From Candidatus Omnitrophota bacterium (GTDB lineage: Bacteria; Omnitrophota; Gorgyraeia; Gygaellales; Profunditerraquicolaceae): 64,000 nucleotides of DNA. Where the stretch lies: contig JBEKSD010000004.1 in the NCBI GenBank assembly GCA_049517335.1, positions 1 to 64,000 on the forward strand, in the 5' to 3' direction. The translations under genes and the position numbers were made by a program. Below are positions 1-43,821 of the stretch, in pieces; position 1 is the stretch's first letter, and each line of letters starts with the position of its first letter. The notes under the pieces were generated by a model. The model saw nothing but the letters and a program-made list of their open reading frames with translations, ran no database searches and was not told the DNA's origin.

Positions 1-20
1 GCAGAAAACAGGACAGGGTA

Positions 21-760
21 ATGAAACGCGAGGCCATTGAGAATATCGCTAAATGTATGCATATAGCTGACGGTAGGGCAGGGGTATGCGACTCCGGTTT
101 AAGCGAAATAGGCTATGAGGATACGGCAAATCTAGGCACACCCATTAACACTGATTTCTTTGATCCCGCGATAGTTGATAGGTATGAGTTCAGAGACAGG
201 AATAAAATAGGGAGAGACAAATTTATGATTTTACTTCCCCACCGCGTCAATCCTCTCAAAGGGCAACTTGATTTAATCCGCGCACTAAATTTATTAGAAG
301 ATAAAACTGACTACGTAATTGTGCTGATGGGGGGGGTGGATGATGAGGCCTATTTGGAGAAGATGCACGCTTTCTCAAAAGAAAATGGTTTAGCAGCTAA
401 TGTAATAGTGCTTCCTGAATTATCGCGGGAGGAAGTACGTTTGGCCTATGCTGCTTCTGACCTCGTGGCCTTACCCACTTATGATGAAGGCTTGTCTACG
501 GTCATACTTGAAGCTCAGTCGATGACCAGGCCCGTTATTGCCACCAATATAGGCGGCAATAGAGAGGCCTTGGTAGATGGTCAGACTGGTCTAATAGTTG
601 AAGCCGGAAATCCTGAAGAATTGGCCAGACAAATCCGTGGGTTAAGAAACGATAACGAAAGAAGAAATAGATTAGGACATAATGGCCGTAGATATGTCAT
701 GCGTTTTGATGTCAAGAATTTAATAAAGAGACACCAGCAGTTCTATTTGCGCGTGATTAA
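21..760 (+). other. Giant protein domain: GT4 (GT-B) glycosyltransferase, partial copy 1
   Basis: RVNPLKGQ, DEGLSTVILEA, ATNIGGNRE and GQTGL motifs typical of the GT4 C-terminal half. Confidence 0.85.
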
Positions 761-6700: not shown

Positions 6701-9700
6701 TTTTATCCTGCGTTGTCGTAAGAGAGATATCAAGCTATTTAAGATCACAGAGAACCTGTGCCATGCTGAGGTGCTGGAAGAAGAATTTGACTTAGGCGGT
6801 AGACAGCAGATTAAGAGAGTTCCAGAAGTATTAGAAGAGCAGTTTGTGCGAGGCGAAGATAGCTGTCAATCGTCCACTGAAAATTCTGCTTTCAGAAAAG
6901 CAGTAAATGACCTTATCCGCTTCTTCTGCGGTAAAGATTTGCCGGCATTTCCATTCTATGGCCGCTGGGAGATTGAGAGGTACGTGGGAGATTTGTCTGA
7001 ATTGCCGGCCCTTGAGGCCAAATTAAAGGCAACCTTTCCGGCTTTGGCGAAGAACTTACCTCTTAGACTTTTGCGAAAAGAAGTATTTGCATGGGCAAAA
7101 ACCCATCACCCTGACGTCTTAAAAGAAGAGATAGAATCTGAGTTTGAAGGAGTAACTTTTAGATTTAGCGTTGAGGAGATAATTGAATATGTTTTAAAAC
7201 CTGATGGAGAAAAAGTTGCAGAGTATAAAAATCCCGTAAGGATAGTTTATAGAACCCCTATTTCAGATAGAAGCCAGGCAGCGCCTTGGGCATATAAAAG
7301 AAAGGCAGCCTTATTGAGGCTGATAGTCTATCGAGACGATATTGCTTCTGATGAAGACAAGGACCTCTACCGTTTGTGGACAAATCAGATTAGGTTCTCA
7401 GCTATATCAACATATGAATTCTCAGCTATATCAACATCTAAATTAGTATATATGCTTCACTCTTCGTCAGAAGCAACAGCAAGAGACATTACGGACGAGC
7501 TGGTAAGGCGTGCTTGGATAGAACCAGACTACGTTGCAGGCCTAATTGTAAGAGTAGCGTTGGGTGATAAAACCTGTCAGAGGGTAGTGATAGAAGCTCT
7601 GTTAGCAATTGCCACCAAGATAGATATAATTGCGGTTAAAAATCCGCTACTCGGCGCATTTGCTGACCCGTTATGCACAGAGCCAGCCGCAGAGGTCTTT
7701 TTAAAGATTGCAGCGTTAAGACCAGACCAAGTAGAGGATTTTGAACGGCACATTAAGCATATATTAGTAACTAATAAAAACGAACAATTCGTAAAGACAG
7801 CGGAAAAAGTACTTGCCTCGCTTGAAGCTAACACAGGGCACCTAGGTGATAAAGCTGCCTATTCAATTCTTATTTTTCCGATGTTTGCAGCTATGCTTCC
7901 TTCAACCGGTAAGCTCATCGCTGCTGTATTATTAATCTCTGGCTTCTTAATTTTTATTTTATCCAGAACAAAAGCATTTTGTAAAATTATCCGGTCGCTG
8001 CGGAATATTATAGAGTATTTGGTCAACCTCTTCCGTGGCTGGTGGGGGACCAAAAATCTCGCCGTAGCGGCCGGCCTTTCATGCGAGCAGGCAAATGAAG
8101 GCGAGATAAAGCTGTTGGAAAGATTCAAGACCCCCATTTTAGATAAAGAAGTAACTCCCGCACAATTTAGGGAGAGTCTCAGATTTATAAAGAGTATATT
8201 TAAAAAGGTAAATAGAGAGGTGGCTTCAAGATATGACATTAGGACTATTATAAAAGAGATAAGGTATGAAGATTTTAGAGACATTAGAGGTCAACCTTGT
8301 CTCCTGCCTTCGTGCAGACCCGGTAGAAAAGTAGTATTAAACGCAAATTTTATAAAGTTTATTGCCTACTTGAAAGCAAAGGGATTAAACAAAGCTCCTC
8401 CCCTAAAAGATAGTCAATCAGGTAAAGAATCAGATTTATTATCCTCCTTTGTTTATTCCATAGCCCTGCATGAAATCCGCGGACATTTTAAGATGTCCAA
8501 GGGGCAGCTTATCTTTAATAGCGATGAAGATTCTGCTCAATCTCAAAGAGGGAATAACTACCTATTTATAAATATTCTGGTAATCTTATTTTACTGGCTC
8601 TGCCTCGTGGAAGGACACACTGGTGAGGAGTTAAAGAGAAGGGCAGAAGAGTTTGTCAGGGCTAATCCACAGTATATATTTGAAAGGCTTGAAGGTTCAC
8701 AGAAGAAAGATTTAGTTTCGCAACTCGGTGAGCTTTGTAGTGCTACTTCCGCAATAAGGCCCGCGGTACGCGAATATGTAAAACCCATTGCTCTTTATAG
8801 GACAAGTAGCCGTAGAGGAGAAGCTGGTTGGAAAAGGGTCGTTACTGCCGCACTACTTCAGGGAGAGTTTCCTAATCTTGAGCTTGACCGAAGATTGAGG
8901 ACTGGAAAATCAATTTACTTCACAACCATTTGGGGTGATGAATTAGTGTTGTATCAGTGGAGCAAGCCTCCAGAGAGAGAGAAACTACCTCCTGGTATAG
9001 GGTTATGCCTAACAGAGCAGAAGCCAATCGAATTTATGGCCAGCGATGGTGTAACAATAGAACTTGGCTGCATCGTATTCCCTGCATCTACCCGCGTAGA
9101 TTGTTCCAATGAAGGCAGGTTGATAGGGCAGAATTTAGAAGCACCGTCATTCTGGCGTCGAATAGATGACCAACTGATTGTAGAGCGTGTAGGCGAAGAT
9201 AAGAGAATAATCATAGAGATTGTTGGTATTTTTGAGGAAGAAATCCATTTCAGATGCCGTGGAGATGAATCTACGATGATGGAAACAAGAGAAGGATTTA
9301 AGCCTTCGCATTCACTAGACCATTGTTTTTTTGTGGAATATATGCAGTTAGGAGAGATAGTTAGATTTAGCATAGGAAATGAAATTATAGAGGTTGAATT
9401 AGTGTCCCTTGACTACGGGGGCCAAAGATGTGAGTTAATCGTAATAGCTCCAGGTAATTATAAGGTAATGTCTGCAGAGTTTAGAAGAGAATTCTTCATT
9501 GATTCAGATTCATCCCGTTCATTTCGTGTCGATTTAAAAAAGAGATGGAAATACGCCTCTCCTGACCTTGAGGTTATCCGTACGAGAGGTTATATAAAAA
9601 GATTTGCAGTGAGAAATCCTGATGGAAACTTTGAATTAGTAAGAGGAAAGAGTTTTGGCTTTGCCGGTTTTATTCCTATCATTGGTTTGTTACACGAAAA

Positions 9701-12700
9701 TATCAATTTATTTTTACCTGCTATTATTGCACTCACAACAATAGTAATTATTACTACCTATTTCCGTGCTCCGTTAGAAAGAATTTATTTAATCGTGAGT
9801 TCTCGCCTCGCCGTGGCTGGTGGGAGAATTCGCAGCTTTCTAACGGGGCATGGCTGGTGGGTGACCAAAAATTTCGCCGCAGCGGCCGGAATGATAATTC
9901 TGACGGGATTAGCTTATTATTTTCTTGGCTTGCCACATCTTCTTTCTGGTCTAAACACGGCAGTGCTGACCCTGATGCCGCTTATGGGTATGGTGCAACA
10001 TAAGCGAAAAGGATTTCCGGCGCCTATCCTTCAAGAAATTGAAAGGCGTCTGAAAGGAGAGCAGCGCTTAGAGACAAATCAAGCACCAAAACATGACCCG
10101 GCTCGCACTAATAAACCTTTACGCAATAGAAAAGTCATAGAAAAGCTAGAAAGTATAGTTAGAGAGCAGGGAGACGAGATTACTACCTTTCCTGTTGCGC
10201 AAGACGCTTTAGAAGTCCGAGAAAAAATAGCCCAGCTTCTAGAAACGAAAAATAAAATAGCAGCCACTGCTTTAAGAAGAGCAAAGATTATACGCGCGCC
10301 TCCAGAATCTGTATTGATGCAAAGAATAAGGGAATTACAAGAAGAACATAAGCTTAAGGTTTATGCGCTTAATGACGCAGATAATACAATTATTATCATC
10401 CCCGAGAATAACCCCACAGAGTTAGAGCTCTCCAAATCCCTCATCTATGAGGCCATCGTCATTCGCTATCGAACTAATATGAAGAGTCTTCATAACTACG
10501 CGCGCAGGGTAGCTATAGAGTTAACGCGTCCTACCGAAGTAAAGGAAGTCGTTACTCGTATCTCCACAATAGAAAAGGATTTTACTGATACCGCTGCAGC
10601 AGAAGAACCTTTTAGCGGTATCCCCTTTCAGCGCGGAGTGGATGATCAACTAATCGTGCAAGGTATAGACAACGGAGGAAAGAATACGTTGATCATAGAA
10701 GTTTCTTATATCAAGGGAGCAAGAATTATGATTAGGATACGTGCTCCAGAATTTATTGAGGTAGAAATGCCCGGTGTTCCTAGCGTATCGCAAACAAATA
10801 CCTGGAAATTTTTTGCTAAGCAGGGATCTATATTTACCATAAAAGATACCCAGAGGCATGAAGCCATAAGAGTAAAAGTGGAATTAATCCAGCCGGCTGG
10901 GAAAGCCTGGGTTTTAAAGGTTGAACTTCCTCCTTGTTTTACTATAGAGCGTGCGGAGGATAGAAAGGTTACTATAGAGGGTTCTCCGGTTGTTGATTTA
11001 CCAGTCGGATATAAATACTTCCATTATGGTCTTGACGCCATATGCAGAAAAGGGAAAGATAGTTCAGAAATAATATCAAGGGGAGCTGACGGAAGATTCA
11101 ACCAGCAAACCGACCGCTGTTGCGACGGGAAAAACCACCTTGAAACTATCGCTTACCGCCAACGCATTATCCAAAAAGCAATAGCCGCCAAAGTAACTGA
11201 GGAAATTGCTTGGGGGCATATGGAAGATATTGCAGGATATTTTGAACGGTACGGATTAGATAATTTAGCTAATTTAATCAGGGCGATGTGGGAAAAGAAA
11301 TTCTTCTGGATTGTGTACGGGTTTCAGATTTCAAAGCGATACAATACCGAAACTTACCAGGTTGATTTTGGCGGCGGTTTTATTGCCCATGATGGCTGGT
11401 GCTTCATTCAATCCGGAGGCACTGCAGAACTCAATGAAATCGCCGTACTCTTCCACGAGTTCTTAGCTCGCATAGGCCTTGAACACGAAATCAGTGAACG
11501 CCTGACTGATTATTTTAGCAAAGGAAGGAGGCCTATACCGGATACGATTACGGTAAAAGGCAAGAAAATCAGGATTAAAGACAAGCTGAGAAAAGTTTCA
11601 TCGCGCATTGAAAATTTGCCTGCAGTAAAAGAGCTTCATGACCGTTCAGCCGATAATACGAGACGGCCAGATAACCGGTCGCTGCGTACTGCAAATAGGA
11701 AAAGAATTTTAATTTCTAAAGGATATTTCGGGGATCTAACACCGGAACAGATTGAACAATTTACACAAGACATAGGAGAAGGAATTATAACAATTGAACC
11801 CATAAACGAATTCAATACATACAGAATACCGCTTAATGGAAAGTCTGCGGAGTTTTACTTATTAGGGTCATATTTACGTAACCCGCCTTTTATCTTTGCT
11901 ATACAGGAAGAAGGCGAGGATATCTTAAAGGTTATCTTCTCAGATCGAGCCTTGAATAGATTTAAAGAGGCATTTCCGTATAATAAACCAGCACAGAAAG
12001 GGGCGCGCATAAAAGCATTGAAGGCAATCGCTTTTCATGAAAAAATTGAAATGGAATTAATAAAAGAAGGGACGGATCCGGAAGACGCTCATGAGGAAGC
12101 AGCGAGGCGGATAATTAGCTTATACCCTAATGACATAATCATAATCCATACTATAAACAATATCTTTTCTGAAGATTCAGGAGTAAAACCGCAACGAATA
12201 GTCTCCATAAACCAAAGCGGTTCTTCACCCGAAAATATAGATTTGCTTGATTGGGCTAAAGATTCTATGTTTCGGGGATTGGTAAGATTAGTGGAATCAG
12301 GTCTGGATGATTTTTCTGTCTTGTTAGAGGCCGGTCAAAAGCTTCCTGCTAAAGAAGGGCAGCCTTGGAGAAGATATATTTCGTACCTTGCACGCGTAAA
12401 AAATGAATTTATTCAAGAAGGCGTTTCAAAAGAGGAAATCTTTTTGCAGATATGTGCTTTGATAAGTGAAAGATGGTTTGAAAGTCAAGGATACATTATT
12501 TATGAAGGGGCATTAATGGATCTTCCAAGTATTCCCTTCTCTCTAATCATCGCTAAACTTACTAGAGAAACCGAATATTATAGGATTATTGATCGTATAA
12601 TTCCGCTGTATTTTGTAAAAGATGCATCTTTAATGAATACCGAGAAAAGTTTACCTCACTTCGTAGGAGGTTGGTACGCTAGTGGTAGATGGATATTTGA

Positions 12701-15700
12701 CCTTGATAGATTAGATGAACAAACAGAAATATATTGGAAAAATATTAATAAGCAATTAGCAATATTGTCCGGTGTACAGTCTCCTCTTGCGAGGGCTAGA
12801 CGCATGCTTTATGGCAAAATAAATGACATATATCCGGACAAGCTTTCTCTTAAGAGTCGTTTATTAGAAGAGCATTGGCTGGAAGCATATCGTCGTGCCT
12901 TTGACCATACCTCACTGGAAAAAAAGATTGGGAGAAAATTTAGATTTGACCGTATTTTCTATAGCGAATTCTGCGAAAGTCAGCTTTCAGAGAAAGGCTT
13001 ATTAAGAGGACTATTCAATAGTTTACCAGAACAAAATAGGGTTTTCTTTACAAAATGTTGCGTAGTGCTTTCCAGCCAATTAGCCAGCGCAGCTATGGCG
13101 CAAGATCCTTTTATAATCTTAGCCTACTGGCTAGACAATTTTGTGAATACTAGAAAAGTTCCTCCAGAATATGTTATCGCGGCAAACTTAGGGGTTAAAC
13201 TTTTAGCCAAGCAGTTAGGTTTAGAGTGGGGGTCTTCCGTAAAGAGTGACTGGAGAACAAATACTCCTGAGAATTGCTTTGATTTTGCCAATGAAGTTTT
13301 AAGGCATCCCGGAAGGGAAATCAGCGACGCCTTACGAGAAGTCTGTAATCACGAATTTAAGGAACCCGCTGAAGAATTGTTATTTCTCTCTAATTGTCTT
13401 ATCTCGGCACTCAAGGAAATATTGGACGAGCCCATAGACACTGCACTATTCAATAAGGTAGAACGAGAAATTTATGCAAGGAGGTTATATTTTAATTTAA
13501 AACAGGCCTTGGAAGTAATACTGGAAGAGTTTGCAGATAAAATTGCATATCTAAAGGCGATAGACAGGGATAATATAGAAATTGCATTTAGGAAGACATC
13601 CCTTTCCATCCACATTACCCGTGAATCAGAAAATCGTTGGCATGCTGACGTAGTTGAAGCTGTTTCTTCGTCCGTCGGCCATAGTCTAGAGGTAGCGGAC
13701 ATTAATACCCATGCCATGGTAGGAGGCGCTGCCAGGCCAACTGCACCCTTTGCCTGCCTTGCTATACCGCTTCTAATGTTTTTGTATCCGTATCTGGGTG
13801 ATAGCATAAGCGTATTCCTTATCCATCTCAAAGAGCTCATCGCGCCTCTGTTTGCTACAGGTACGCACTGGCTCTCGCATTGGCTCTTAGGTAGTATGCT
13901 CTTGCCCCTGTTAGGTGAGATTAATCCACCGTGGCCTGATGATTTAAGAGAGAGAGACGTTGATGACGTAAGAGAGAACTCCGACGAGAACTACACCTAT
14001 GAGTTCCCCTTCGTCTTTACGGCCAGTAACGGAGACAAATTAAAGATTAAGGTAGGTATAAGACAAGTTGGCAAAAAGACCGCAATCAAAATTTTTGTCG
14101 ATTACAGCAAAATAAAAATAAAAAAGTATTATTTTCCTCTGGTATTAGTATCCGTAGAAGGCCCTAAAAATATAGCTGGCCTCATCAAGAAAATGATATC
14201 ATTAGGGCTTTCCCAGATTATTCATGATGAGAATGGGCTTGCGCCGGAAGAACGGACGCGCCTTTCGCAGGAAGTTGAGGAGTTTATCCATACAAAAATA
14301 CCTCTTAGGCTTGCGCAAAGCATTTGTTTTATTCAGCACCTCAATGCGGCATTCCCATTTCTTGAATTTAAAGAAGAGAGGTTAGAAGAGATTATTCATT
14401 TCTTGCCAGTAATAGTCTATAAAGGAAACCCTACTTTTTACTTTGGGTCTATTTTAGAAGGTTTATCTTCTATTTTAAGGAAGATAATAGATACCGGCGA
14501 GTCTACTGATATTCTGGTTAAAAAAGCGGAGGAGATTAAGCCGAATAGCGGCATCTTCTTATGGCACACTGAGCTGGCGGACAGAGTAGAATCCGAAGAG
14601 AGGCTTCAGATTCCTACAGACCCATCGGCTAAAATCCCGCCAGAGAATATACCCGTGGGTTTCTATGTACCACTTGACCGTTTGGATACAACTAAGTTAA
14701 ATCCCGAAGATTTAGTCGGCGCTCAACCAGGTCTATTTTCTGTTTCTGAGAAAGCTCCTTGTACATATCAGCTTACTGCCATAGGATTGCCAAAGCCAAT
14801 TGTCTTAATTTCTCACAATTCCCCAACATTGCAAAGGGAAATTAGTAAGATTCTTCCCAACACCACAGTAAGTTTACCTCTTAATACTAATAGAATAAAT
14901 ATTGTATTTGAATCCGGTCTCGAAAGGAAAAAGACAATTATAATTATAACATTGGATAGCTTAGAAGATGCCGAGAGAGCGGTTAAGGTACTTAATACTA
15001 TTGCAAGAGGCGATTCCTTAGAGGCCATAGCGTTAGAAGCTAAACAGGTAGAGCAATCTAAGGTAGCATCGTCACAGAAAGCACTAGCAGAATCAACAGC
15101 TACCCCAAAAAATGAAGGCAGGTTTCTAGACGAAAAAGTCCTTCGCTCTTTCACTATGGCTGATCCAAGGCTAATATGCAGTGGAGTATTCGCAAGCCTA
15201 CAACATGTATTAGGAGAAAAAAGGTTGTATGCCCAAGCAGCAAATTTAGACAGGCGACAGGTAATCCTGCTTAGTTTTGGAGAAAGTAATGACCCTAAAT
15301 CAGATAAATTTAGAGCATTTTACCAGACCCAAGAAGGCGGATTAGGTTTTATATATAATGGCGTGGAGGTTTTCTTTAGTTCAATAATGGTAGTTATGTC
15401 CAGAGACGCCAAGACATATTTTTCTTGGCAACAGAGTTCTTTGCTTGGTTTAGTTCAAAATAAAGATAGCCATATGTTTATTCCTGTTGTCAGCCAGCAG
15501 CGCATGCAAGAGATTGCCGGAAATGAAAAGATTAGAAAGCTTCTGGAGAAGGCAGGGATTACTTTTACTACTCCCGAAGAGGTTGCGCATGTCCCTGATG
15601 CCGTTACTATCACCTGGCCGTGTACTCAAGAAGAGATGGTGTATAGAGAACTTTCAGATTCATACAGAAAGCGAGATGCTGACCCCTCTGAGAATGGTTT

Positions 15701-18700
15701 CCGCAGGACAGACAATAATGGAATGGAATTGGCAATTGGAGAATATTTTATGCGCTGGGAACCGGAAGGGGCTGTTTTGAAGGCTCCGAACTTCAAGAAA
15801 CCAGTGGAATTCCCTAAGAGCGTGCGACTTTTAGGTTGGGCATATGGCAGAGAAGAAACAGATGAAGACCCTAACTTTCAATGCTTGTATGCGGTTTATA
15901 TTGATACTGCGGGCAGTTATGTTCCTCCTGAGCACAATGGTTTGCTACGTTTTATAAACAATAAAGACTATTTAGCAAGTAGGGGTTCTTTTACTGAGTT
16001 AGCTTATGTACCTTTGCCTCAAGACCTCATTCAACAACAAGGCACTCCACCGGATTTAACCTCGGCTGATGAGCCGCTTGACAAAAAACAGGTAAGGCGC
16101 CTGTTTGATTATTTAGGCGATTTTATTCAAGAGGAAGTCACTCCTGAGATGACAAGGGAGATAGCAAAGATTTTGAACATAACGCTATTAAGCCATAACA
16201 TTGGTTCGCTACAGGAGAATGAAGAGTTGATTAATCAGGCGCTGGAAGGTTATAAAATTAAGAAGGTATATATTATGGGCCGTAAGGAATTATTCGGCCA
16301 GCAGTTAGGCACAGAGATACGCTCGGCCATACATCCGGATAAAAAAGAAATCATTGTGCTTATCCCTGAAGAGCATGATTATTTTGCCGAAGATAAACTT
16401 ATCATCATGCGGCTCTGCCATGAATTTAGTTCTTTGGCTTTTAAGACCAGCCACCAAGTAAATAGTGAAATTGAAGAACTACTCCTGGAAAATAAGCAAG
16501 GCAGGTTATCGCCACGCAGAAAATTAACCAAGCCGGCCAGGACGGAGTTAAAAAATAACCTTGCCGAAATTTACCAAGATAAAAAACTGCCTACGATTGA
16601 CTTTTGTGCCGCAGAAGGAGAGAGACTAAGCGCACTAGAATATGCTAAACTACTTAAAAAAGAGTTTGAGGCTTCCAAGGCGCGGATATGGAAGAGGTCT
16701 TCTCTAGCTACGATTAATCAGCAGATGAAAGACTATACTGAGCTTGTGGATAAGTTTGTGAAGAAGGTTTTTCAAGAGGCGCTGCGCCGTTATTCCAAGG
16801 CAAAAGAGTCAGTAGCGCTAGTAGCAACAGGCAGCTACGGACGCCGACAACTCATTTCCCTTTCAGATGTTGATATTAAATTCCTTATATCGGAAGAGCC
16901 GGAAAGAAAGCAAGATACCGCCAGGGAGATTAGGGAAGTAACTAATTTTCTGCAGGAAGCCCTATACAGTTTATTCAAAGACAAGCATTGTCGCCCCGAT
17001 ATTTCTACGCATTTTACTCTTACTGTGGTAGAAAATATTTTAGGAGTACAGCACCATCAAGATATAGACTATATAGAATTAGTCACCGGACTACTTGATT
17101 TACGCTTAGTTACAGGTGATAAACATATTTACGCGGCATTTCAAGATAAAATAAATGCTCTTTTAACAGAGCAAAAACCCAAATTACTTTCAGCTTTCAA
17201 AAAAGAGCTTACCTCAAGACGCGGAGTAGAAGATATAGCACTGAGCGCTAGGCCGGTGAATTTGAAGAAAGGGACCGGTAGCACTTTTGACTTTCAATTC
17301 CTGGGCTGGATAGAAAAGATTGGGAAGAGGAGAAGCTTAAGAGAGTGGGAAGGAAAAGAGACGCAGGAGGCATTTGAATTTATGCAGCTTTTGCAGGTTC
17401 AAATATTTCAGCTTATGCAGCAATGTCCTCAGGTAGCAGCTATCGCGCCTGATTTCTTAGCAGATAGAGAGTTTACTCCTGAACTCCAGAAGGCATTTGT
17501 TCGCTGGCTCGTAGTAGGATTAACCCCTTATTTAGATTTGAATGAACCGGCTTCAGTAAAAGAGCAATTGGAACATATCCGCCTGATGCAGCGGGTTTCA
17601 CATTACAGGCGAGTACTTGCGGAAACTGCGATTTCAGCCATGAACCGCACGCAGCTGCCTTTACAAGACCAGCCGCAGGCGAATCCGTTTGAAAGTGACC
17701 CAGCCAAGATTATGGAGCGGTTTGCGTCTGTTGCGGCCTCATATACTCTAGTTTGGATTCCAGAGTTAGAATTAATGAAACAGGCCTTACCTGTATTTAG
17801 AGCCGAGATGGAAAAAGCGCTTGCCGCTCGACCAGGAGAACGGGGTGTATTCTTTGCGCGCGTGAATAAGGCGCTCCTTGATATTCTGGAAGTGGACAAA
17901 GATATTTCAAGGGTGATGTGGCAGCTTCAGCGCTTAGGACTATTAGCTACCATTCTTCCTGGATGGCGGCGTGTTGACGGCGTAGTTAGTAAAGACCAAT
18001 GGCATATTTTTACAGTGGAAACACATATCCTTAAGGTGCTGGAAGCAGTTGAGAAATTAAGAACAGATGACCCGCGTGGGCGATTAGAGGATGCTATGTG
18101 TTGGGCAAGAGAACATAAGCATTTATCCACCCTGCGCCTGGCAGTTTTAACCCACGACTTAGGAAAACCAGGTTTACTTAATTTACCTGGAACTTCGCAT
18201 GAAAGGGTAGGTGCGCATCAAATCGTACCGCAGATATTGCAACGTTTGGGTATCCCTGAGAATAGCTTACGTTTTCGTTTGGTACGCTGGTTAGTGTTAA
18301 ACTCCGATTTACTTATACAATACCAGGATCGCGACCCTGATGATCCGGAGCACCTCTTGGCGCTTGAAGTCAACCGTTTAGGCCAGGATACGTTTGGCCA
18401 GAATCTCTTTACAGCTTTAAAAAATGAGCCGACGGAGTTTATTGAAGGGACTACCTATCTTCTGCCACTTTTGGAATTTGCCGACCATTCAGCCACTAAG
18501 CCAGATAGTCCACATGTTGATACAATCAGGAGGACATTAAACCATTATTCTCCTTGGCCAAAACTTGCCAGACAGGATTTTGATTTAGACCAGATGCAAG
18601 ATGAAGTCTGCAGCGGTATTAAGCCCGAGGTCTTAGCCGAAGTAAAAAGGTTGACCAAAAACAAATACGGCCGTCAGGCGAAAAAAGAAGTAGATTATTA

Positions 18701-21700
18701 CTTTAAACATGTGCCTGCGATAATTTGGTTAACCAGGCCGAAGAAAAAGATGGTCAGTTATATTTGCGAAGAGGTTATTTTAATGTTACGCTTGCGTAAT
18801 GAAAGTCTTTCAGCAGGAGTTATCATCCGGCCGCCTCAGAATATTTTAGAGGAGCCATGGGAGATTATTGTCTTGAACCCCAGGGATGAGCCCGGAGTGC
18901 TTGCGAAAATATCCGGCGTATTATCAGCATATGGTTTTGATATCCAGGTTGCCCAGGCTATCTCCGGTAATTCCGGAGCTGTAATTGACCGTTTCTTAGC
19001 CAGGCTTCCTGAGCCGATATTTATGGATCATTCTATGCCTGAGATTGAGCGCTTGGCCGTAACTATACAGCGGGCGCTGCAGATAGATATGCGGGCGGTC
19101 TTTAAAGATAGATGGGAACTGGGTGCCGCCAAGAGCGTAAAGCAGGTTTTCTCAGAGCGCGGCAAGGATTACCTGTTCCATAATCCCTGTAAAGTCCCCT
19201 TTGAGGTTAATTTTTCCGATGGGCCTGAGCCGACGGTAAGGATGGCCTTTAAGGGAAGCGATTTTGTAGGCTCACTCCATGTTATCTCGCGCATACTGGC
19301 TGAGAATTTTAATATTAATATCCAGTTCGCCAGCATTGATACCCACGGTTCAACAGCGGTTAATGTTCTTTATATTGAACAGATATCTGGTGGTAGAGCC
19401 GTAAGGCCTTCTCAGGAAACGCTGGCAGAGATTACGCGCGTATTGACCGATATCTTAAGCCGCAAGGATATTGATCTTGATGAAGAGGAACATACTCCAC
19501 AGGCACTAAATTCTTTTATCTCTCCTGTACTGTTCGCCGCATTTTTCTACGGCACAAAATCTACTTTCTTGGCTAATCTACTTATCCATAACCCTGCCTT
19601 ATGGGTAGCCGGCGGTATTGCTTTGTTGATTATTTTAACGATTATTATATCAAACCAGCTTAAAAAGGACGTTCCGACAAAACTGGGAGAGTTTATAACT
19701 GTGTCCATCGCAGGAATTATAGGTATCCTCGGAGCCCTAGGGTTCTTCATTGGTAGCTTATGTCGCGGTCTTAATGCTACACTAAGGTTTTTCTGGTTGA
19801 AAATTTCCCCATCGCGCTGGCCGCCACAGAAACTTCAGCTAAGCACCCCCACTTTATTACCTATTACTTGTCATGCAGGAGGCAATATAGTACATCAACT
19901 TCAGGAGTCTTTTGGTAATGCTTGGTTAGAGGTGCTGACTTTTGCGGGCATTCGTTCCCAGACAATCGTAGAATATTTAACGCCATTCAATGTAAATGGA
20001 GACCTATGTGCGGCACGTGCGGTTTATAGACATACTTTTATGCTTTCTAATGGCAGGCAAGTTGTTTTATTTGAAAAAGAGTTTGGTTTTGGCAATCCAA
20101 CATTGATGGATCTCTTTCTCCAAGGGGAGTGTAGACGCACTCAAAAGGCCTATAATGGTGGCCACAATAGCGTTGGCCCTAAATCCGCTGTGATATGGAT
20201 CGGGAATGAACCGAGGCTTTTTAACATGGCTGTTAGTGGGAGAGAATTGCAAGAGGCAGAGGTGGATAAGGACATCCTCGTTGCCGCAGGGCTAGGAAGG
20301 TCTTTAGGGTTTCTGCACAGGTATTACCACATTGCCCATGGCGATTTATATTTTATTGATAGTGACGGCAAGGTGCGGCTGAAAACAGAACATGTCTATC
20401 TTGGTGAAGATGTAGATGGATTTCCATGGATAAGATTCATTGATTTTAGGCCTTTGGCATTATTTAAGAGCAAGAATAAGGAACGCAAAAATATTACCTA
20501 TGTATTCTCTGGAGCAAGCCGTAGTGCATTTTTAATGGAATACGATAGAGCTATTAGCGGTATTTTTTCTTATTATCCTGCTCCCGGATGTTTTGGCGAC
20601 GTCGAACCGCAACATATCAAGATGTTTTTAGAATTGATTGAGCAAAAGAAATTCCGCGAGGTCACAGAAGCTAAAATATTAGTTTCGCAGGTTGAAGGCA
20701 TTCCGGTGAAGGTTTTTGTATTCGACCCCGAGATTAGCCGTGCTCCGCCGGTCTGGGAACGGCTTGTTCAAAGAAAAGATGCTTGTCTTGAAATTTACTT
20801 CACCACCGAAAGCAACTATCAGCGCCTAAGTCCCTATCTAGAAGAACTCTCCTATCATGGTCTGGTTGAAAACCGGCTTTTAAACCAACCCGGAGTAACC
20901 CCTCGATCTGCCCACCGGGGGGCTGTTTTAGCCGTACGTAAGAAATTCCCGCATACCGCGCCAGGATTAGAAGCGGCTGGTAAGCCAAACGTTCCCGCAG
21001 AATTTGTTACTGACAACTATTCAATTATAAGCGGCAATGGTTTTGTTACGGTGCAACAGGAAATACGCCGTTTCGATAGACGCTACATTCCCTTTGGCTG
21101 GTATTTTAAGAAAGGCGAAAGAGGAAGGGTTATTGTGCCGAAGAGGGTTTTTGGAAAGGCAGGGCGCTCATTTGTTGAAGTAAAAGTTCCGCAACAATCC
21201 GAAGAAACCTACTTAACCTTTTTCTTCGTACCCCACCCATTAAAAAATGATGCTGGGAAAAAACTTGAGCTGGTTGCACAATCCATATGGCTTAATTATC
21301 TTCAGCTTTTTATGTGGAACAAACATAGAGATGAAAAAGCATTCAGAATGGGTTTTAAGATTATCTGGAGGAATTCCGACGGAAAAGATATTCTTATACC
21401 GAAGCTCACCGTTGAAGAACAGAGAGGAGAATTAAAAGTTACTACTGGGGCCAAAAGCAATTCCTTCAGCCAATTTGCAGTTCTCTTTAGTATTATCTGT
21501 CTTGGTCTTGCCTTTACCGCGCCGCTGTGGTTGCCGGTACTAAAGCTTATTCTTGCTGGCATAGGCACGGCCAACGTTGCCCTTGCCCCACCGGTTTCTC
21601 TCAAGCTCCTCGTCGCAGGCGCAATGCTTGGGGCAATATCCACCCATAAGTCCGCATGCCGTGCCTCCAGACCGGCGGATGTTTCCCTGCCGAGGATTAT

Positions 21701-24700
21701 TATTATCGGAGCGGGCATCGCCGGTTCATACGCTGCATCATATGCAGCTTCTCAGGGATTTGAGGTAGTTGTATTAGAAAGAGCTAGCTTAGAGGAATCT
21801 CGGCACCCGTTATTTGGCAGAAAATGTGCAGAAGGGATATGGCTGGAGAAAATGCAAAAAGCTGGTTTGAGTTGTGATATCCATGCTTTACCTGCCTGGG
21901 TTGACTACGTAACCGAAAGGCTTCTTATCGGGCGACTGGACTCAAGTAGCGAAATTCAGACCGCTGAGTTTGATACAAAACCGTACCTTTATCTAAACAG
22001 GCAAGCCTTTGAGCAGGATAATTTAAATAAGGCGAAAAAGATGGGCGCGGTCTTGCGCTATGGTCAGCATGTGCAATATTTGAAACAGGTAGTTGATGCT
22101 AACCCCGGAGCCATCATCATCCTTGCCACAGGAGTAAGCAGGCATCTGGTAAAAGAGATGCTAAAGCCGGAAAGGCAAGCACAATACAGCGCAGAGAATA
22201 ATTATGTGATTGAGGCGCAGTACACTTTCCGTGGCGTAGATTTAACGCGCTTAGGCCATTTTAAAGCGGTGTTCTTTGCTGATGATCCCCGGGTGGCATA
22301 TTTCCATGTTTTTCCCAAAGGAACTCTTCGAGACTGCGAGGTTAATGTAGGTGTTATGTGCGCGAAATACCATATCAAAGAGATATTTACCTTATTAGAT
22401 AATTTTATTGGGGCAGCCAACCGGCATTTCGGTGGTATTTTTGAGGGTGCGCAAAAAATCAAGGAGAGGACGTTTACCAAGCCGAATACTAGCGGCAGGC
22501 CCATAGTATTAGAAGATATGGACCGTCAGCAGTTTGCCAATGTATTACCTGTTGGTGATGCCGCCAAGCATGTTGGTTCATTGAGCGGCGGAGGAATCGG
22601 GTATGCGCTCTTTGCTGCAAAAATGGCCATAGATACAATACGAAATAACCCAGATGTTCCTGCAGAAGCGATTCAGGAAAGATACTTCCAGGCAATTGAA
22701 GAACTCACACAGGACTTAGAGGAAGATGCAGCAAAAAGAGAATCATTTTTTCCAAGAGACCCAACTATTAAAAAGAAATTCCTCGATCGTTTTATGGCCC
22801 TTGCTACTGCGGGCATTGAGTCCAGAAAGGTTTCTCTTTCATTTAGCAGGCTTACGGATATGGTAGTAGGATTTAATCCGCAACTGGCGGCCCTAAAGCC
22901 CTGTTTCTTAAATGCCATATCGGAAGTGAAGGCTTTATTTGAAGAAGCGGATATCCCTTACGCCGCAATTGGCGGTGTGGCTGCCAAAATAATGGGGTCT
23001 CCAAGAGAATTGAGTCAGGATGTGGATTTTATGACAACCACTGACGGCCTTGATCGTTTTATCGCAATGGCAGGGAAATATGGCTTGTCACTCTCGCACT
23101 TTGCTTGGCAGGGATATGGAGCGAGAGCCGATGTGCTAGAATTCTATATTAGCAGAGCAAAGATACACATCGTTGGTAATATGGAAATCAATGATGCCGC
23201 CGGGAATACCCATCATTTTTATCCTGACACAGAGATGATGAGTAGGGCTCTTGAGAGAGAATGGATAGGAGAGATTGATAAAATTAAAGTATTGTCTGCA
23301 GAAGATCAGTTCATTCTCAAAGCCCTTTGGCAAAGAAGCACAGACGTAGACAAACATGATATTGACGATGCAGTTGCCGTCTTCCAATATAACAATAAGA
23401 ATTGGGATAGCGAATATTTTATAAGAAGAATTAGGGCTGTTGGAGGAGAGCTTGCTTTGGCCAGGATAGCGAATTTCTTCCGTCAACACATTGACTCAAG
23501 TGAGAGAGCATTCAATCTGATTTTAGAAAAAAATGCTGCAACTGAAAAACGAACCTCCAACCCGGCGGAAATTGATCTCGACACAGAATACGAACTCAGG
23601 TGGCAGGGAGGCGAGGCGGATATTTATCAGCATAAAAAGAAGCCTACATTAATTAAAGTATTTCATCTTAAGGGAGTATCAGCAGCGCATATTAGAGAAT
23701 ATGTTAGGATTGTCACAAAACTCATTGGTTTTGGGCTTCCAATTATACCGATGGAGACAGTCCAATTAAAAAGTGGTGTATGGGCCGTAAAGATGCCTCT
23801 GATAGAAGGTAAGACGTTGGATGTAAGCACCAAAAAAGATACTAAGGATATTAAATCTTCGAAGGCCACTGCAAGGAGAATTCAGCAAGAGATCGACAAA
23901 TTAACATTATCTTGGACAGGAATGGAATTGGCTGATTGGCACTATGTCTACTTGATGTTCGACTTTTTCCTTATACCTGTAGAAGCATTTCCATGGGCAA
24001 ACTATATGGTTCAGGCCGATAGCACGGTAATTTGTATTGACCCTATTTCTATAAGGTTGCTAATGAAACAAATGGCTGCCTCCTCGCCCGCCACCCCGAG
24101 AACAAAACCCACTCGTAGGACCAAGGGTGATTCCTTCAGTCAATTTGCAGTTATCCTTGGTATTATCTGTCTTGGTCTTGCTTTGACCGCGCCACTCTGG
24201 TTTTCAGAGCTAAAGTTGGTCCTCGCTGGCATCGGTACGGCAATTACTGCTTGCGCACCGCCAACTTCCCTCAATCTCCTCACCGCAGGCGCAATGCTAG
24301 GGACGATAGTGGAAAGTTCCAATCCCGTAGGCGATGAAGGCCGCGCAAAATCTACCTGCTTCTCGTCCGCTTGCAGTAAGCCACGCCGAAGGGCCGCTAC
24401 TCCATCCTTAGGTATTAGCGCAGTTTTGCAAAATATTACCCGAAGAATGCAAGACGGGGACTTAAAACAGTATCGCCTTCCCATACCGGATTGTATTGCT
24501 AATCATGAGCCGTACTCCGACCCCCCTCTTCCATTAAGGGAATTTTTAAGAAGCGGTGCGGTAAATAATTTCTTTAGGCTATTCCCAGAATTAAGGCAAA
24601 GGATATCTGATAAGCGTAAATTTAATCGTCTCCTGCAAGATTTATATACTTTTGCTAACCGACAAGCTAAGAGCGCATATGGAGATTTCCGTCATTATTG

Positions 24701-27700
24701 CCATACTGAACAAAAAGAAGCCGCAGCTTTAATGTGCGCAGGATTTAAGAGGCTAGGTTACCCCTCTACTACTCTTTGCACACCTTCACTTGAAAGCTTA
24801 AATGACTGGTGGCCTTCCGCTGGTGGTATACACTATGCTATCGTCGTAGACATTAAAGGAATAAAGTTATTCGTGGATATCAGTTTTCCGTTTATCGCCA
24901 GATTTGAAAGTGTCAATCATGCATTAGGATTAGTAGTGATGCCGCAGGAATTATTAGAACACGATACACAGTTACGCCAGCTTTATCAGGAAACAGAACC
25001 AGTCGTTACTAGTGCGCCTAGTAAGTTCTTAGACGACCCAGATTCTGTCACAGAGCTTGCGGTAGCGGCTAATCATCCTGAAGAAATCAGAGATGTTATT
25101 AAACACATCGCGTCATCACCTCAGAAGTTAAGACATTTGAACGGGGTTACGCCAGAATATGGGGAGCAGCTCATAATGAAAGTAGCGCAGGGAAGGACAC
25201 ACGTCTATACCTTCAGTATTCAAGGCGCAAAAGTTATTGGTTTGGTGGTGACTCAAGAAGCGACAGGGCACCAATGGGATATTTCTATGTTTTATCTGGA
25301 TTGCCGGTATGTGGGAAGAGGAATCAGCAAAATTATGTTGAGCTCGGTACTGAGTGACTTAAAAATAAGGGTAAAAAATATCTCATGTGTAGGATTGACT
25401 CCCGGATTCGCTCAGGCGATAGAAGATAGGCCACTATTAGATTTCTTCGAGCGCGAAGGGTTTTCTCGTGACAGACATTTAAAGGATTTGAGACAAGTCC
25501 GCGCCTCCAACCTGACTAAATACTGCTTAACTGGTGGTTCCATCGTGCTGGGTGTTATCATTCTCAGCCTTGCCTTAACTGCGTCCTGGTGGCTACCAGC
25601 GTTAAAGCTCGCCCTCACAGGATCTGAGGCGGATTTTGCTTTTTCATCCGCCTTACCTATATTAGGGCTCGGGAAAGGAATAGGTCTATATTTGTTGTTG
25701 GGCATGTGCGCGCAGCCAAGAGGTGTTTCGACTTCAGAACTGCACCTACAAGCTGAAAAGGTAATAACTGAGCCGCCGAGGCAGATAAAAGAGCGGCTTT
25801 ACAAGAAATTAGATTTAGCCAGTAGGCTGGTGGATGCAGGTTTTCCTAGTCGCGCTAGACGCTTACTCATCGCTGTTACGGCTGATTGTAAAAAGATGAT
25901 TGAGGCAGCCAAATCCAAGAGCCGCTTGGCGTCTGTAGCTGAACTGGCAAAGTTAGCTGATGAAATTCTGGCAAAAGTAGAAGATATAGTCGATGAAGCG
26001 GGAATAGAGATGCCTGAAGGGGCGGATGAAACTCAGGAGAAAGAAGTTTCAGCCGGAAATTCTGCTTTGTCTGATGAGAGAGTGGCTTTACTCAGGCAGC
26101 TCGGAGAGAGTGAGTCTTCTGTAGCCATGATAACGGAGCGGATAGACAAGCATAACTATGATGCTGCCATCGGCATATACTTGCTTTATCCAAATAATTT
26201 CAATTTGAATTGTCTTAAGGAGGCCTGCCGTAAGGACCTGAGTGTTACATTAGAGTTATTGTCTGCCCTTGAGAATCGTAAAGAATTCGAACGGGAATTA
26301 CCAAGGGAAGGCTCTATCGCTAAAATAGAAGACCTTGAGCACAAGCTGAGAAGGGCAGGGATAGGTGTGGTGGCTAACCAACGTGCCAAAGCCAGCCCAA
26401 GGACACTCTTGGCCATAGTGAGGCTTAAAGCATTTTATGTGCACAACTACTTGGATATTCCCAAAGGCGAGTATGAAAAAAGCTCTTATCCTAAGGACGC
26501 AGAATTATTCCACGCATCATGGAATAATGGTAGAGAAAAGATTTTCAGTTTTCACCACAAAGAGACCGAGGTAAGGTTTAGCTTTACAAGCACTAAAGCA
26601 TTGATTAAGAAAAGGCCGTATCTGGCCTGTAGGCTGGGAGAAGATAACCGCCTGGTTTTAAAGGCCAGAGAATTAAACGCTGAAAAAGAAACTACATATT
26701 GGTTGATTTGTGACGAAGCGCCCTATCTTAGGGAGATAGAAGCCTCTCCCCGTTTATTCATAAGATGGCTGGTAAAGGAGAGAAAATATAAAGATCCTCA
26801 AGTCGTCCGTTTACTGGCTTCACTTCCTTATTCAAAAAGACCTAGATACGCACTTAAAGGAGAACGCCATACCCACGCATGTTGGGCTCAAGGGAATAAA
26901 ATCATGCAGATAACAAATGATATACCGGATCAAACAAGGAGGGCTGAATATACCCTTTTGACAGCTTCTGAAGTACAACAGAGAATACCTGTTGTTAAAG
27001 ATGAACGCCTGCAGGAAGAACAGTTGGTCTTGATGGCTGAAACCAGACATACGTTTGGTTTTTACTTTTTTACAGATGTGGGTAATCATATTAATTTTAT
27101 CGGTCGCCTGATTAAAGCAACAGGAGAGATGCAAAGGGATCACCATGCGAAGTTAGGACCTGTGGCAGAAATTCTGGAATTCATAAAAAGAGGAGTGTTT
27201 GATAATCCCGGTCAACCGCCGATGACTCCCGAAAGCTTTCCCTTTGTTTTTAACAGAGATGGCTTTGTATATTTAGGTAGTTTTGTCTTGAGAAAAGGAG
27301 GCAAACCCCATAATATTTACCTTTACCATGGTAAACAAATAAAGAAGGGGACAGCGGTAGAAATAAGACGTGTCTTCTCGCGAAAAGACTCTGCAGGATC
27401 CCGGGGGCAGTGGCTTCTTGAAACTCAACCGCAAGGGGGGGGTGTCTATCGTTTCTACTTTTTTAAGTACGGGATACGAGGACAGCATCTCGCTGTCGTA
27501 GGTAGGTGGGTGGCAGAGCTAAAGGCCAACGGACAGCATAATCTATCGTCCGCCGCCCCACGAGCACCTGAAGTAGGTAGGTCTATTGTAATAGGAAACA
27601 CTCATCCAGGAGTAACCGCATTTATCCTGAAGAAGCTAAATTTAAGAGGCGATGAGAAGATATGCGACATCGGATCAAACAGGGGAGACTTTTGCCTTGC

Positions 27701-43087: not shown

Positions 43088-43780
43088 GTGCCGACGCAGA
43101 GACGTTATGTAAGATGGGTTTTGCATAAGGACGCAAAGTTTAAGGTAGGCCAGGCCGGTTCGCCTTACATTGATTGCGTAATTACTGATTTAAGTTTTAA
43201 AGGAGCTAAAATCAACACTCATATGAAGCTTCTGCGGGATACTTTTGCGGAGATAAGCATTATTTTGGCTGAAAATGTTGTTTTAAATGTTGAAGCGTGG
43301 ATAGTGTGGCATAAAACGGTAGATGGGATTAATTCCTATGGGGTTTATTTTTCCAAGATACAAGACCATGATAAGGAAAAAATCTACCGTTTTATTTGTT
43401 CAAACTATCCTAAACAATTAAACGAAAAAAGATGGTATGAACCATCGCAAGAAGAAAAGGAGGGTAAGGATATGGAAGACCGCAGGATTTTTCAAAGATT
43501 CTCGGTAGAACGGCCGGTAAGGTTCCTGGATATGGATAGCGGAAGCGAGGGGAAGGCTATGACGCTGGATATCAGCGCTAAAGGGATTGGTTTGGTATCT
43601 AGTTCTGAGCTTAAGCCGCGCGCTGCTTTGGAGATGTGGCTTGAGGTTGCCGATAAAGAGGAGCCTATTTACACGCGCGGAGAGGTGGTTTGGTCTAGAA
43701 AAACAGAATCGGGTAACTTTACAGCCGGGATTAACCTTGAAAAGGCTAATCTGATGGATCTATCAAGGTTATTAAGGTAG
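43088..43780 (+). CDS. Tandem PilZ-domain (c-di-GMP receptor) protein
   Basis: Two RxxxR + DxSxxG pairs (QRRYVR/DLSFKG; DRRIFQR/DISAKG); AAGGAGG RBS before the GTG start. Confidence 0.9.
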   Translation: MPTQRRYVRWVLHKDAKFKVGQAGSPYIDCVITDLSFKGAKINTHMKLLRDTFAEISIILAENVVLNVEAWIVWHKTVDGINSYGVYFSKIQDHDKEKIYRFICSNYPKQLNEKRWYEPSQEEKEGKDMEDRRIFQRFSVERPVRFLDMDSGSEGKAMTLDISAKGIGLVSSSELKPRAALEMWLEVADKEEPIYTRGEVVWSRKTESGNFTAGINLEKANLMDLSRLLR

Positions 43781-43794
43781 CTGTTTTATTTAAG

Positions 43795-43819
43795 AAGGTG
43801 CCGACACTGGCATTTTTTT
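43795..43819 (+). terminator. Probable intrinsic terminator after the PilZ gene
   Basis: GGTGCCG-ACAC-TGGCATT hairpin followed by a T run. Confidence 0.55.
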
Positions 43820-43821
43820 GC

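What the first reader, a model, noticed from the sequence alone, without database searches (positions are those of the whole stretch)
16630..19460. A complete GlnD (PII uridylyltransferase/removing enzyme) embedded in the giant protein
Seen: NTase (GSYGR..SDVD, 16830-16875), HD (HDLGK, 18153) and two ACT domains in canonical order. Known: GlnD is normally a standalone cytoplasmic glutamine sensor that modifies PII proteins. Its presence as an internal, TM-flanked module is unusual. Inference: a captured gene that could alter nitrogen signalling in a host or in the cell itself.
Basis: partly seen in the sequence, partly recalled or inferred. Interest (0 to 1): 0.78.

Follow-up and report, generated by a model that had tools for sequence, protein, structure and literature searches.

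The report
Complete GlnD-like module in giant protein
A 14,264-residue membrane protein of an uncultured Omnitrophota bacterium contains a full-length but very divergent copy of the nitrogen-sensor enzyme GlnD, one of a whole clade of such built-in copies that seems to have been retargeted away from its classical substrate.

Summary
Window 16614-19457 (aa 5538-6485 of the 14,264-aa ORF 3..42797) encodes the full GlnD domain order: nucleotidyltransferase (NTase), helical linker, HD, ACT, ACT. All 9 NCBIfam hits are GlnD models (best E 1.7e-48), but at 165 bits against a 519-bit cut-off.

It is not a fresh capture of a standalone glnD. In 401 Omnitrophota genomes only 1 has a GlnD over the cut-off, and that copy groups with E. 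coli. At least 24 other genomes carry GlnD-like matches inside open frames of 1,122-38,333 aa. In two trees all embedded modules fall on one side of a branch (SH-aLRT 99 and 98).

The clade has split into writer-type units (NTase kept, HD residues lost) and eraser-type units (NTase domain lost, HD kept). The window's module is the only 1 of 22 with both signatures.

The genome has no other glnD and four PII genes, one with Tyr51. PII is still a weak candidate target. Nine relatives have Tyr51-PII without any module, and 8 of 10 writer-bearing genomes lack Tyr51-PII.

Most likely it is a ligand-gated nucleotidyl writer/eraser tethered to the membrane, with an unknown target. This scan had already noted GlnD-like modules in other Omnitrophota giants.

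The parts
3..42797 (+). Giant ORF, 14,264 aa, open at the contig start. It is the host protein of the module.
   Evidence: One search gives the ORF. One search gives the other Pfam domains: 2x GT1, RNHCP, protein kinase, several methyltransferases, FAD/NAD-binding motif, FHA, Fic. One search gives about 50 hydrophobic peaks, many of them in pairs.
16614..17324 (+). N-terminal helices plus GlnD/GlnE-type nucleotidyltransferase domain (aa 5538-5774)
   Evidence: TIGR01693 positions 13-195. Own GlnD profile 9-243. Pfam DUF294 NTase, E 4e-7. The fold resembles GlnE 3k7d/1v4a and DrrA 6yx5_B.
16830..16886 (+). NTase signature GSYGRRQLISLSDVDIKFL (G-S ... D-x-D)
   Evidence: G-S and both Asp are kept. 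The Glu of GRxE is Gln here.
17259..17294 (+). Degenerate K..GGLRD motif (NLKKGTGSTFDF)
   Evidence: GGLRD is at least 90% conserved in 72 standalone GlnD. Here it reads GSTFD, so the Arg is lost.
17343..17825 (+). Helical linker, the counterpart of the GlnD_UR_UTase region, poorly conserved
   Evidence: No PF08335 hit at E <= 1. Not matched by my profile at columns 243-343. Helices with pLDDT 42-84.
17844..18509 (+). HD phosphohydrolase domain (aa 5948-6169). It carries His 6008, H6051-D6052, His 6066 and Asp 6161.
   Evidence: TIGR01693 positions 329-536. Motif table: H..HD..H..D are kept, and one accessory His (E. coli RQH) is Ser. The fold matches HD-bearing CCA/poly(A) enzymes 3wfo-3wfs.
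18510..18800 (+). Helical linker between HD and ACT1
   Evidence: helices 641-737 of the model.
18816..19103 (+). ACT domain 1
   Evidence: Pfam ACT, E 1.1e-6 on the C-terminal slice. Profile columns 625-874. Secondary structure.
19203..19457 (+). ACT domain 2
   Evidence: TIGR01693 positions 666-842. Alignment. Secondary structure. The fold resembles the threonine dehydratase regulatory domain 9d2s.
19596..19751 (+). Pair of strongly hydrophobic helices (aa 6532-6550 and 6565-6583), followed by a basic stretch
   Evidence: Kyte-Doolittle 2.56 and 2.36. Sequence.

Best explanation
The stretch is a genuine, full-length, highly divergent descendant of GlnD. Its order is NTase, helical linker, HD, ACT, ACT. 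It belongs to an Omnitrophota-specific clade of GlnD-like modules that exist almost only inside giant multi-enzyme membrane proteins.

I think it works as a small-ligand-gated reversible nucleotidylylation unit. The two ACT domains probably bind an amino acid. They would set the balance between adding a nucleotidyl group (NTase) and removing it (HD). The unit would be held at the membrane by the helix pair just after ACT2, on the side where nucleotides are available.

Its substrate is most likely no longer restricted to PII. It may be another cellular protein or part of the giant protein itself.

Shown: the homology, the architecture, the state of each motif, the clade, the writer/eraser split in the clade, and the lack of a standalone glnD. 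Inferred: catalytic activity, ligand, topology and target.
For: - Homology and architecture.
- Catalytic signatures: G-S...DxD of the NTase and H..HD..H..D of the HD domain are kept.
- Clade: all embedded modules, plus one 936-aa ORF of the same class, separate from standalone GlnD. SH-aLRT is 99 (95 rows, LG+G4) and 98 (55 rows, LG+C20 PMSF).
- Phylum pattern: 1 of 401 genomes has a GlnD over the cut-off. Among the 150 listed matches, 25 genomes including this one carry matches in frames of 1,122-38,333 aa.
- Subfunctionalisation: subclade A keeps D-x-[DE] in 9 of 10 covered rows and has HD in 0 of 10. Subclade B has HD and the final Asp in 11 of 11, and the NTase motif in only 1 of 11, the window.
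- One giant (G080) carries a writer unit and an eraser unit about 270 aa apart.
- Retargeting: 9 relatives have Tyr51-PII but no GlnD-like module. Only 2 of 10 genomes with writer-type modules have a Tyr51-PII.
- Neighbours in the same polypeptide are other protein- or small-molecule-modifying enzymes: kinase, Fic, methyltransferases, FHA.
Against: - No activity has been shown.
- The window's NTase has lost the Arg of GGLRD and the Glu of GRxE. GGLRD is at least 90% conserved in standalone GlnD, and the GRxE Glu is in most of them and in all 10 covered writer-type units. The NTase may be decaying.
- The module's nearest relatives in the tree are eraser-only units.
- This genome does have a Tyr51-PII next to amtB, glnK and glnA, and it has no other GlnD. 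A classical PII role here is not excluded.
- All 10 writer-bearing genomes have PII-family genes.
- Topology is not established. A third weak hydrophobic stretch lies before the helix pair, and I had no topology predictor.
- The trees are 'quick' searches with long branches, and treekit warns about these.
Confidence: 0.45

Rival explanations
1. It is the cell's own working GlnD, merely fused into the giant protein. It uridylylates and deuridylylates the Tyr51-bearing PII encoded on contig C9, in response to glutamine.
For: - The genome has no other glnD.
- It has a PII with Tyr at position 51, aligned without gaps to E. coli and Aquifex PII, in a cluster with amtB, glnK and glnA.
- Both catalytic signatures and both ACT domains are present.
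- All 10 writer-bearing genomes have PII-family genes.
Against: - 27 of 40 relatives have PII. Nine of them have a Tyr51-PII but no GlnD-like module, so PII works without GlnD in this lineage.
- 8 of 10 genomes with writer-type modules have no Tyr51-PII among the PII genes found.
- The score is a third of the TIGR01693 cut-off.
- The near-invariant Arg of GGLRD is lost.
Confidence: 0.22
2. It is an effector module. The giant protein, or a fragment of it, is exported to a prey or host cell, where the GlnD-like unit nucleotidylylates host PII or other host proteins.
For: - Omnitrophota giants have been proposed as predation or attachment factors (West-Roberts 2023 preprint, abstract and sections 7-8).
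- Other long proteins with GlnD-like parts (P0019, P0049, P0076, P0090, P0110) begin with signal-peptide-like hydrophobic N-termini.
- The same ORF carries Fic and protein kinase domains.
- The NTase fold resembles the Legionella effector DrrA (6yx5_B, E 4.7e-3). Recalled: DrrA AMPylates a host Rab tyrosine.
Against: - The N-terminus of this ORF is missing, because the contig starts inside it. No signal peptide is known for it.
- The many paired hydrophobic helices fit anchoring better than release.
- ACT-gated sensing and an eraser domain are features of a regulator, not of a one-way toxin.
- I looked for no delivery machinery.
Confidence: 0.13
3. It is a catalytically silent sensor or scaffold. 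The ACT pair still binds a ligand, the NTase and HD domains no longer turn over, and the unit only regulates neighbouring domains allosterically.
For: - The window has lost the GGLRD Arg, the GRxE Glu and one accessory His.
- Whole domains or catalytic residues have been lost repeatedly in the clade.
- End branches are very long, 1.26-1.64 changes per column.
Against: - The metal-binding D-x-D and the complete H..HD..D tetrad are kept despite only 21-25% overall identity. That suggests selection on the active sites.
- Across the clade, each unit keeps at least one of the two sites.
Confidence: 0.2

Closest known systems
GlnD, bifunctional [protein-PII] uridylyltransferase/uridylyl-removing enzyme (TIGR01693; E. 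coli b0167)
   Same: The domain order is the same: NTase, helical region, HD, ACT, ACT. The G-[GS]...DxD and H..HD..D signatures are kept. My GlnD profile is matched end to end, columns 9-874 of 876.
   Different: - It is embedded at aa 5538-6485 of a 14,264-aa membrane protein instead of being a soluble protein of about 890 aa.
- It is 21-25% identical to standalone GlnD.
- It scores 165 bits against a 519-bit cut-off.
- There is no PF08335 hit.
- GGLRD reads GSTFD, and one accessory His is Ser.
- It lies in a separate clade.
- The substrate is unknown.
Writer-only and eraser-only GlnD-like units of other Omnitrophota giant proteins (for example G080, G345, G375, G016; earlier scan notes e1-870989 and e1-1008143)
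   Same: Same clade, same phylum and same kind of host protein.
   Different: Those units have lost either the HD residues or the whole NTase domain. The window's unit is the only 1 of 22 compared that keeps both signatures. The host giants are not orthologous: only the GlnD-like part aligns, at 22-25% identity.
GlnE adenylyltransferase and the AMPylation domain of Legionella DrrA/SidM
   Same: The nucleotidyltransferase fold is related: Foldseek 3k7d_A E 7.1e-4, 1v4a E 2.3e-3, 6yx5_B E 4.7e-3. Recalled: these enzymes nucleotidylylate a protein tyrosine.
   Different: They have no HD domain and no ACT domains. Pfam GlnE scores only E 0.006-0.022 here.
Omnitrophota giant proteins ('Archaeovorin' type, West-Roberts et al. 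2023 preprint)
   Same: A very long ORF with many membrane helices, GT1 and methyltransferase domains. Carbohydrate-uptake genes lie downstream, as the preprint describes (abstract and sections 7-8 read).
   Different: In the main text of that preprint and of the 2026 preprint, 'GlnD', 'uridylyl' and 'nucleotidyltransferase' each occur 0 times. No SecA, NUDIX or peptidase domain was found in the part of the ORF held here.
HD-bearing class II CCA-adding/poly(A) polymerase-type enzymes (PDB 3wfo-3wfs)
   Same: They are the best solved-structure matches for the HD region, by sequence (E 1.4e-4) and by fold (E 1e-4). The genome's own 487-aa frame on C1 also matches GlnD models only over the HD part.
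   Different: Only the HD region corresponds. They have no ACT domains. They rank first only because no GlnD chain came up in the PDB searches.

Membership tests
GlnD (TIGR01693, EC 2.7.7.59) | Domain order NTase, HD, ACT, ACT in one unit | tested here: met
GlnD (TIGR01693, EC 2.7.7.59) | Score over the curated equivalog cut-off (519.4 bits) | tested here: not met
   165.5 bits.
GlnD (TIGR01693, EC 2.7.7.59) | NTase signature G-[GS]-x(9-13)-D-x-D | tested here: met
   GSYGRRQLISLSDVD.
GlnD (TIGR01693, EC 2.7.7.59) | K..GGLRD motif, at least 90% conserved in 72 standalone GlnD | tested here: not met
   It reads K..GSTFD. The Lys, first Gly and Asp are kept and the Arg is lost.
GlnD (TIGR01693, EC 2.7.7.59) | HD metal-binding residues H..HD..D | tested here: met
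   ETH, THD and FAD are kept. One accessory His is Ser.
GlnD (TIGR01693, EC 2.7.7.59) | Groups with standalone GlnD in a tree | tested here: not met
   It lies on the embedded-module side of a branch with SH-aLRT 99 and 98.
GlnD (TIGR01693, EC 2.7.7.59) | Uridylylates and deuridylylates PII Tyr51 under glutamine control | not testable with these tools
   Indirect evidence only. The genome has a Tyr51-PII, but across genomes Tyr51-PII and the modules do not go together.
GlnE (glutamine synthetase adenylyltransferase) | Two GlnE-type NTase domains, no HD or ACT | tested here: not met
   Pfam GlnE E 0.006-0.022, under the cut-off. The architecture differs.
Class II CCA-adding enzyme / poly(A) polymerase with HD domain | PolyA_pol head domain followed by HD, about 400-500 aa, no ACT | tested here: not met
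   Only the HD part aligns. No PolyA_pol Pfam hit was listed at E <= 1.
Omnitrophota giant multi-enzyme membrane proteins (Archaeovorin type) | Omnitrophota genome; ORF of many thousands of residues; numerous TM helices; GT and methyltransferase domains | tested here: met
   The best MnmG hits, at 67-71% identity, are mostly Candidatus Omnitrophota MAGs.
Omnitrophota giant multi-enzyme membrane proteins (Archaeovorin type) | SecA DEAD-like domain, reported in most full-length giants | tested here: not met
   Not among the Pfam hits at E <= 0.01. The N-terminus of the ORF is missing, so this is weak.

The most novel reading that the evidence does not exclude
Omnitrophota giant proteins carry a self-contained, ACT-gated, reversible protein-nucleotidylylation system. 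It descends from GlnD but has been cut loose from PII. Writer and eraser are usually separate units. The window holds the undivided form. The system would control other domains of the giant protein or other cell or prey proteins in response to an amino-acid signal, which would make it a new post-translational signalling circuit.
Probability: 0.3. Interest if true: 0.8.

Novelty: new variant of a known kind. Interest (0 to 1): 0.55.

Why it matters
GlnD is the textbook master sensor of bacterial nitrogen status. As far as I recall, it is known as a standalone enzyme with one substrate family, PII.

Here a phylum that otherwise lacks GlnD has built GlnD descendants into giant membrane proteins. 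It has split them repeatedly into add-only and remove-only units. The presence of these units does not track a modifiable PII tyrosine.

If the modules are active, they define a new target range for GlnD-type chemistry. They would also give a first handle on how the enigmatic Omnitrophota giant proteins are regulated. The window's undivided unit is the natural construct to test first.

Tried and rejected
- **GlnE or CCA-enzyme identity:** rejected.
- **Recent horizontal capture with a nameable donor:** not supported. No representative scores E <= 1e-30. The sister group is unresolved. There is no GC anomaly. The protein libraries carry no taxon names, so no donor could be named.
- **Orthologous giant in kin:** rejected. 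G375 (12,948 aa) and G016 (3,699 aa) share only the HD-ACT part with the window's ORF.
- **Membrane helices as a conserved flank of embedded modules:** not found. Most of the 22 modules examined have no strong peak next to them.
absent from this ORF.
- **Internal repeats in the giant:** none at blastp E <= 1e-8.
- **Locus search in genome contigs with the embedded-module alignment A2:** failed because no stretch was conserved enough. I used the one scan for taxonomy instead.
- **Pfam on the 1,566 aa before the module:** 0 families at E <= 0.1.
- **Not run:** a complex prediction of the module with PII, because I do not claim that they bind.
Full report
**What is there.** The window is the first 64 kb of contig C4 of a 1.45-Mb, 92%-complete genome. 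One open frame, 3..42797 (+), encodes 14,264 aa and is open at the contig's first base. GSYGRRQLISLSDVD starts at nt 16830 and THDLGKP at nt 18150.

NCBIfam gave 9 of 9 hits to GlnD equivalog models. The best is TIGR01693 at E 1.7e-48 and 165.5 bits, a third of the 519.4-bit cut-off. Its three matched pieces cover model positions 13-195, 329-536 and 666-842 of 850.

Pfam alone is weak. It finds DUF294 NTase at E 4e-7, ACT at 4e-5 (1e-6 on a shorter slice) and HD at 0.07, with no GlnD_UR_UTase hit. A profile built from 134 standalone hits matches columns 9-243, 343-556 and 625-874 of 876 (E 2e-92).

AlphaFold2 on a 26-row alignment gave pLDDT 79 and pTM 0.65, with two clear ACT units. Foldseek matched three parts:
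- the HD part to HD-bearing CCA/poly(A) enzymes (E 1e-4);
- the NTase to GlnE (7e-4 and 2e-3) and to DrrA (5e-3);
- the ACT pair to a threonine dehydratase regulatory domain.

No GlnD chain appeared in either PDB search. That explains why CCA-type enzymes top those lists.

**Flanks.** A strong hydrophobic helix pair (aa 6532-6550 and 6565-6583) follows ACT2 and is followed by a basic stretch. Upstream, the nearest peak is weak and about 400 residues away. The 1,566 aa before the module have no Pfam hit at E <= 0.1. 'TM-flanked' is therefore half right. Elsewhere the ORF carries two GT1 domains, RNHCP, a protein kinase, several methyltransferases, an FAD/NAD motif, FHA and Fic.

**Organism.** The window's MnmG is 67-71% identical to its best hits. 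Most of those are titled Candidatus Omnitrophota MAGs. This fits notes on other pieces of the same genome.

Omnitrophota are the phylum known for giant membrane proteins with glycosyltransferase and methyltransferase domains (West-Roberts et al. 2023 preprint; abstract and sections 7-8 read). A 2026 preprint reports that 46% of 916 long proteins are TM-only, and it reads that as cytoplasmic domains anchored in the inner membrane (section 21 read).

In the main text of both preprints, 'GlnD', 'uridylyl' and 'nucleotidyltransferase' each occur 0 times. Three library searches found no paper linking GlnD to these proteins. The preprints' supplements were not open to me.

**Relatives.** Against 1.84 billion representatives, the 971-aa module has 2,169 hits at E <= 1e-3, 661 at <= 1e-10 and none at <= 1e-30. 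The best is 1.2e-27. Most of the top 150 are 800-950-aa proteins at 26-32% identity. Seven are 2,021-5,367 aa and hold GlnD-like parts internally. The word-indexed search gave 17 standalone-sized hits at 21-32% identity. Those covering 90-97% of the query are 21-23% identical, and one is named PII uridylyltransferase by its source.

Among 40 genomes of the same family or order, 15 gave a match. Thirteen of these are only in 475-544-aa frames over the HD part, like this genome's own 487-aa frame on C1. G003 gave only a weak ACT-only match, and G010 has one beside its HD-part match. Only G016 has an HD-plus-ACT match in a 3,699-aa frame.

Across 401 genomes of the phylum, 1 has a GlnD over the cut-off. 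That genome is G224, with an 892-aa frame and 7% contamination, and its protein groups with E. coli GlnD at support 100. It is probably foreign. Among the 150 listed matches (111 weaker ones were not listed), 25 genomes including this one have GlnD-like matches in open frames of 1,122-38,333 aa. One of them contains stops.

The giants are mosaics, not orthologues. G375 (12,948 aa, a whole contig) and G016 share only the HD-ACT part with the window's ORF, at 22-25% identity.

**Phylogeny.** I aligned the HD-ACT columns of four groups of rows:
- the window's module;
- 21 other embedded modules (15 from genome loci, 6 from long library proteins);
- one 936-aa ORF (L041);
- 72 standalone GlnD (70 drawn at random from 151, plus E. 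coli and G224).

All 22 embedded modules plus L041 form one side of a branch with SH-aLRT 99 (IQ-TREE quick, LG+G4).

A second tree used the site-heterogeneous model (LG+C20 PMSF). It had 20 embedded-side rows (L041 counted among them) and 35 standalone rows. I left out two gappy rows, one duplicate and one long-branch row. It gave the same split at 98.

Both are short searches with long branches, and treekit flags this. The sister group of the clade is unresolved (support 48), so no donor can be named. P0019 has only the NTase part and was not in the trees.

**Motifs.** The clade has two halves.
- Subclade A (11 rows, full-length architecture) keeps D-x-[DE] in 9 of 10 covered rows and mostly keeps K..GG.R. 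It has the HD dipeptide in 0 of 10 covered rows.
- Subclade B (11 rows including the window) has the first His, HD and the final Asp in 11 of 11. The NTase motif is present in 1 of 11, the window.

The window's unit is thus the only 1 of 22 with both signatures. It is not pristine, though. GGLRD reads GSTFD, the Glu of GRxE is Gln, and one accessory His is Ser. Its nearest relatives are eraser-only units, so its NTase may be on the way out.

In G080, one giant carries an HD-dead writer unit and an HD-intact eraser unit about 270 aa apart. This matches what this scan noted on other DNA.

**Is PII the target?** The genome has four PII-family genes in one cluster with two amtB genes and glnA.
- One has Tyr51, aligned without gaps to E. 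coli and Aquifex PII.
- Two amtB-linked copies have Glu51.
- One is fused to an amino-acid-permease-like transporter and has Asp51.

PII is found in 27 of 40 relatives. Of 33 distinct PII sequences, position 51 is E in 18, Y in 10, D in 2, and F, H and Q in 1 each. The nine relatives with Tyr51-PII have no GlnD-like module.

Conversely, all 10 genomes with writer-type modules have PII-family genes. Only 2 of them (G167, G371) have Tyr51. Two have Phe51, and the rest have E, H, V or short loops. Several of these genomes are incomplete (67-98%) and kin are not independent, so this is a pointer and not a test. It argues that the clade as a whole does not depend on PII Tyr51. It cannot exclude PII as the target in this genome.

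**Verdict.** This is a real, complete, very divergent GlnD-derived unit. It is a new variant of a known enzyme kind, in a known kind of host protein. My best reading, at about 0.45, is a ligand-gated nucleotidyl writer/eraser tethered at the membrane whose target is no longer confined to PII. The rivals are:
- a plain GlnD for the cell's Tyr51-PII (0.22);
- a silent sensor or scaffold (0.20);
- an exported effector (0.13).

The scan had already found GlnD-like modules in other Omnitrophota giants. What this window adds is the undivided form and the phylum-wide picture.

Noticed in passing
G000:C9:16161-18098 (locus L009:2162-4099): A 645-aa ORF fuses an amino-acid-permease-like polytopic transporter to a C-terminal PII domain with Asp at position 51. 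A similar 632-aa frame occurs in relative G020. It lies upstream of a porin-like gene, a Tyr51-PII, two amtB-glnK pairs and glnA.
   Followed up: partly
window 39300-41500 (aa about 13,130-13,880 of the giant ORF): An FHA domain (E 1.6e-5) and a Fic domain (E 7e-8) lie close together near the C-terminus of the giant ORF. A strongly hydrophobic helix at aa 13647-13665 lies between them and the end.
   Followed up: no
window 21477-21640, 24144-24200, 28296-28460: A similar hydrophobic hairpin recurs at least three times in the giant ORF. Examples are ...ILGIICLGLALTAPLW... and ...LPALKLILAGIGTA.... It is too short to show up as an internal repeat at blastp E <= 1e-8.
   Followed up: partly
window 2700-2960 (aa 900-984): An RNHCP domain (PF12647, E 3e-28) sits between the two GT1 domains and a protein-kinase domain at the N-terminal end of the giant ORF.
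   Followed up: no
window 43088-58558: Directly downstream of the giant ORF lie a tandem-PilZ protein, an ABC sugar-uptake set (binding protein plus two permeases), an MFS sugar transporter, a GH2-like TIM-barrel protein with TPR, a ROK protein and a LacI regulator. This is the carbohydrate-import neighbourhood reported next to Omnitrophota giant genes.
   Followed up: no
window 19900-20600 (aa about 6,630-6,870): After the helix pair that follows the GlnD-like module comes a stretch with a kinase-like signature...HGDLYF...IRFIDF.... Pfam does not recognise it at E <= 0.1.
   Followed up: no
G224:C111:3221-5734 (locus L023): This is the only GlnD over the cut-off in 401 Omnitrophota genomes. 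It groups with E. coli GlnD at support 100 and sits in a genome with 7% contamination, so it is probably a binning contaminant or a recent transfer.
   Followed up: partly
G345:C10 (locus L155): A 38,333-aa open frame in a same-class genome holds a writer-type, HD-dead GlnD-like unit with an altered NTase motif, AADRDG.
   Followed up: partly
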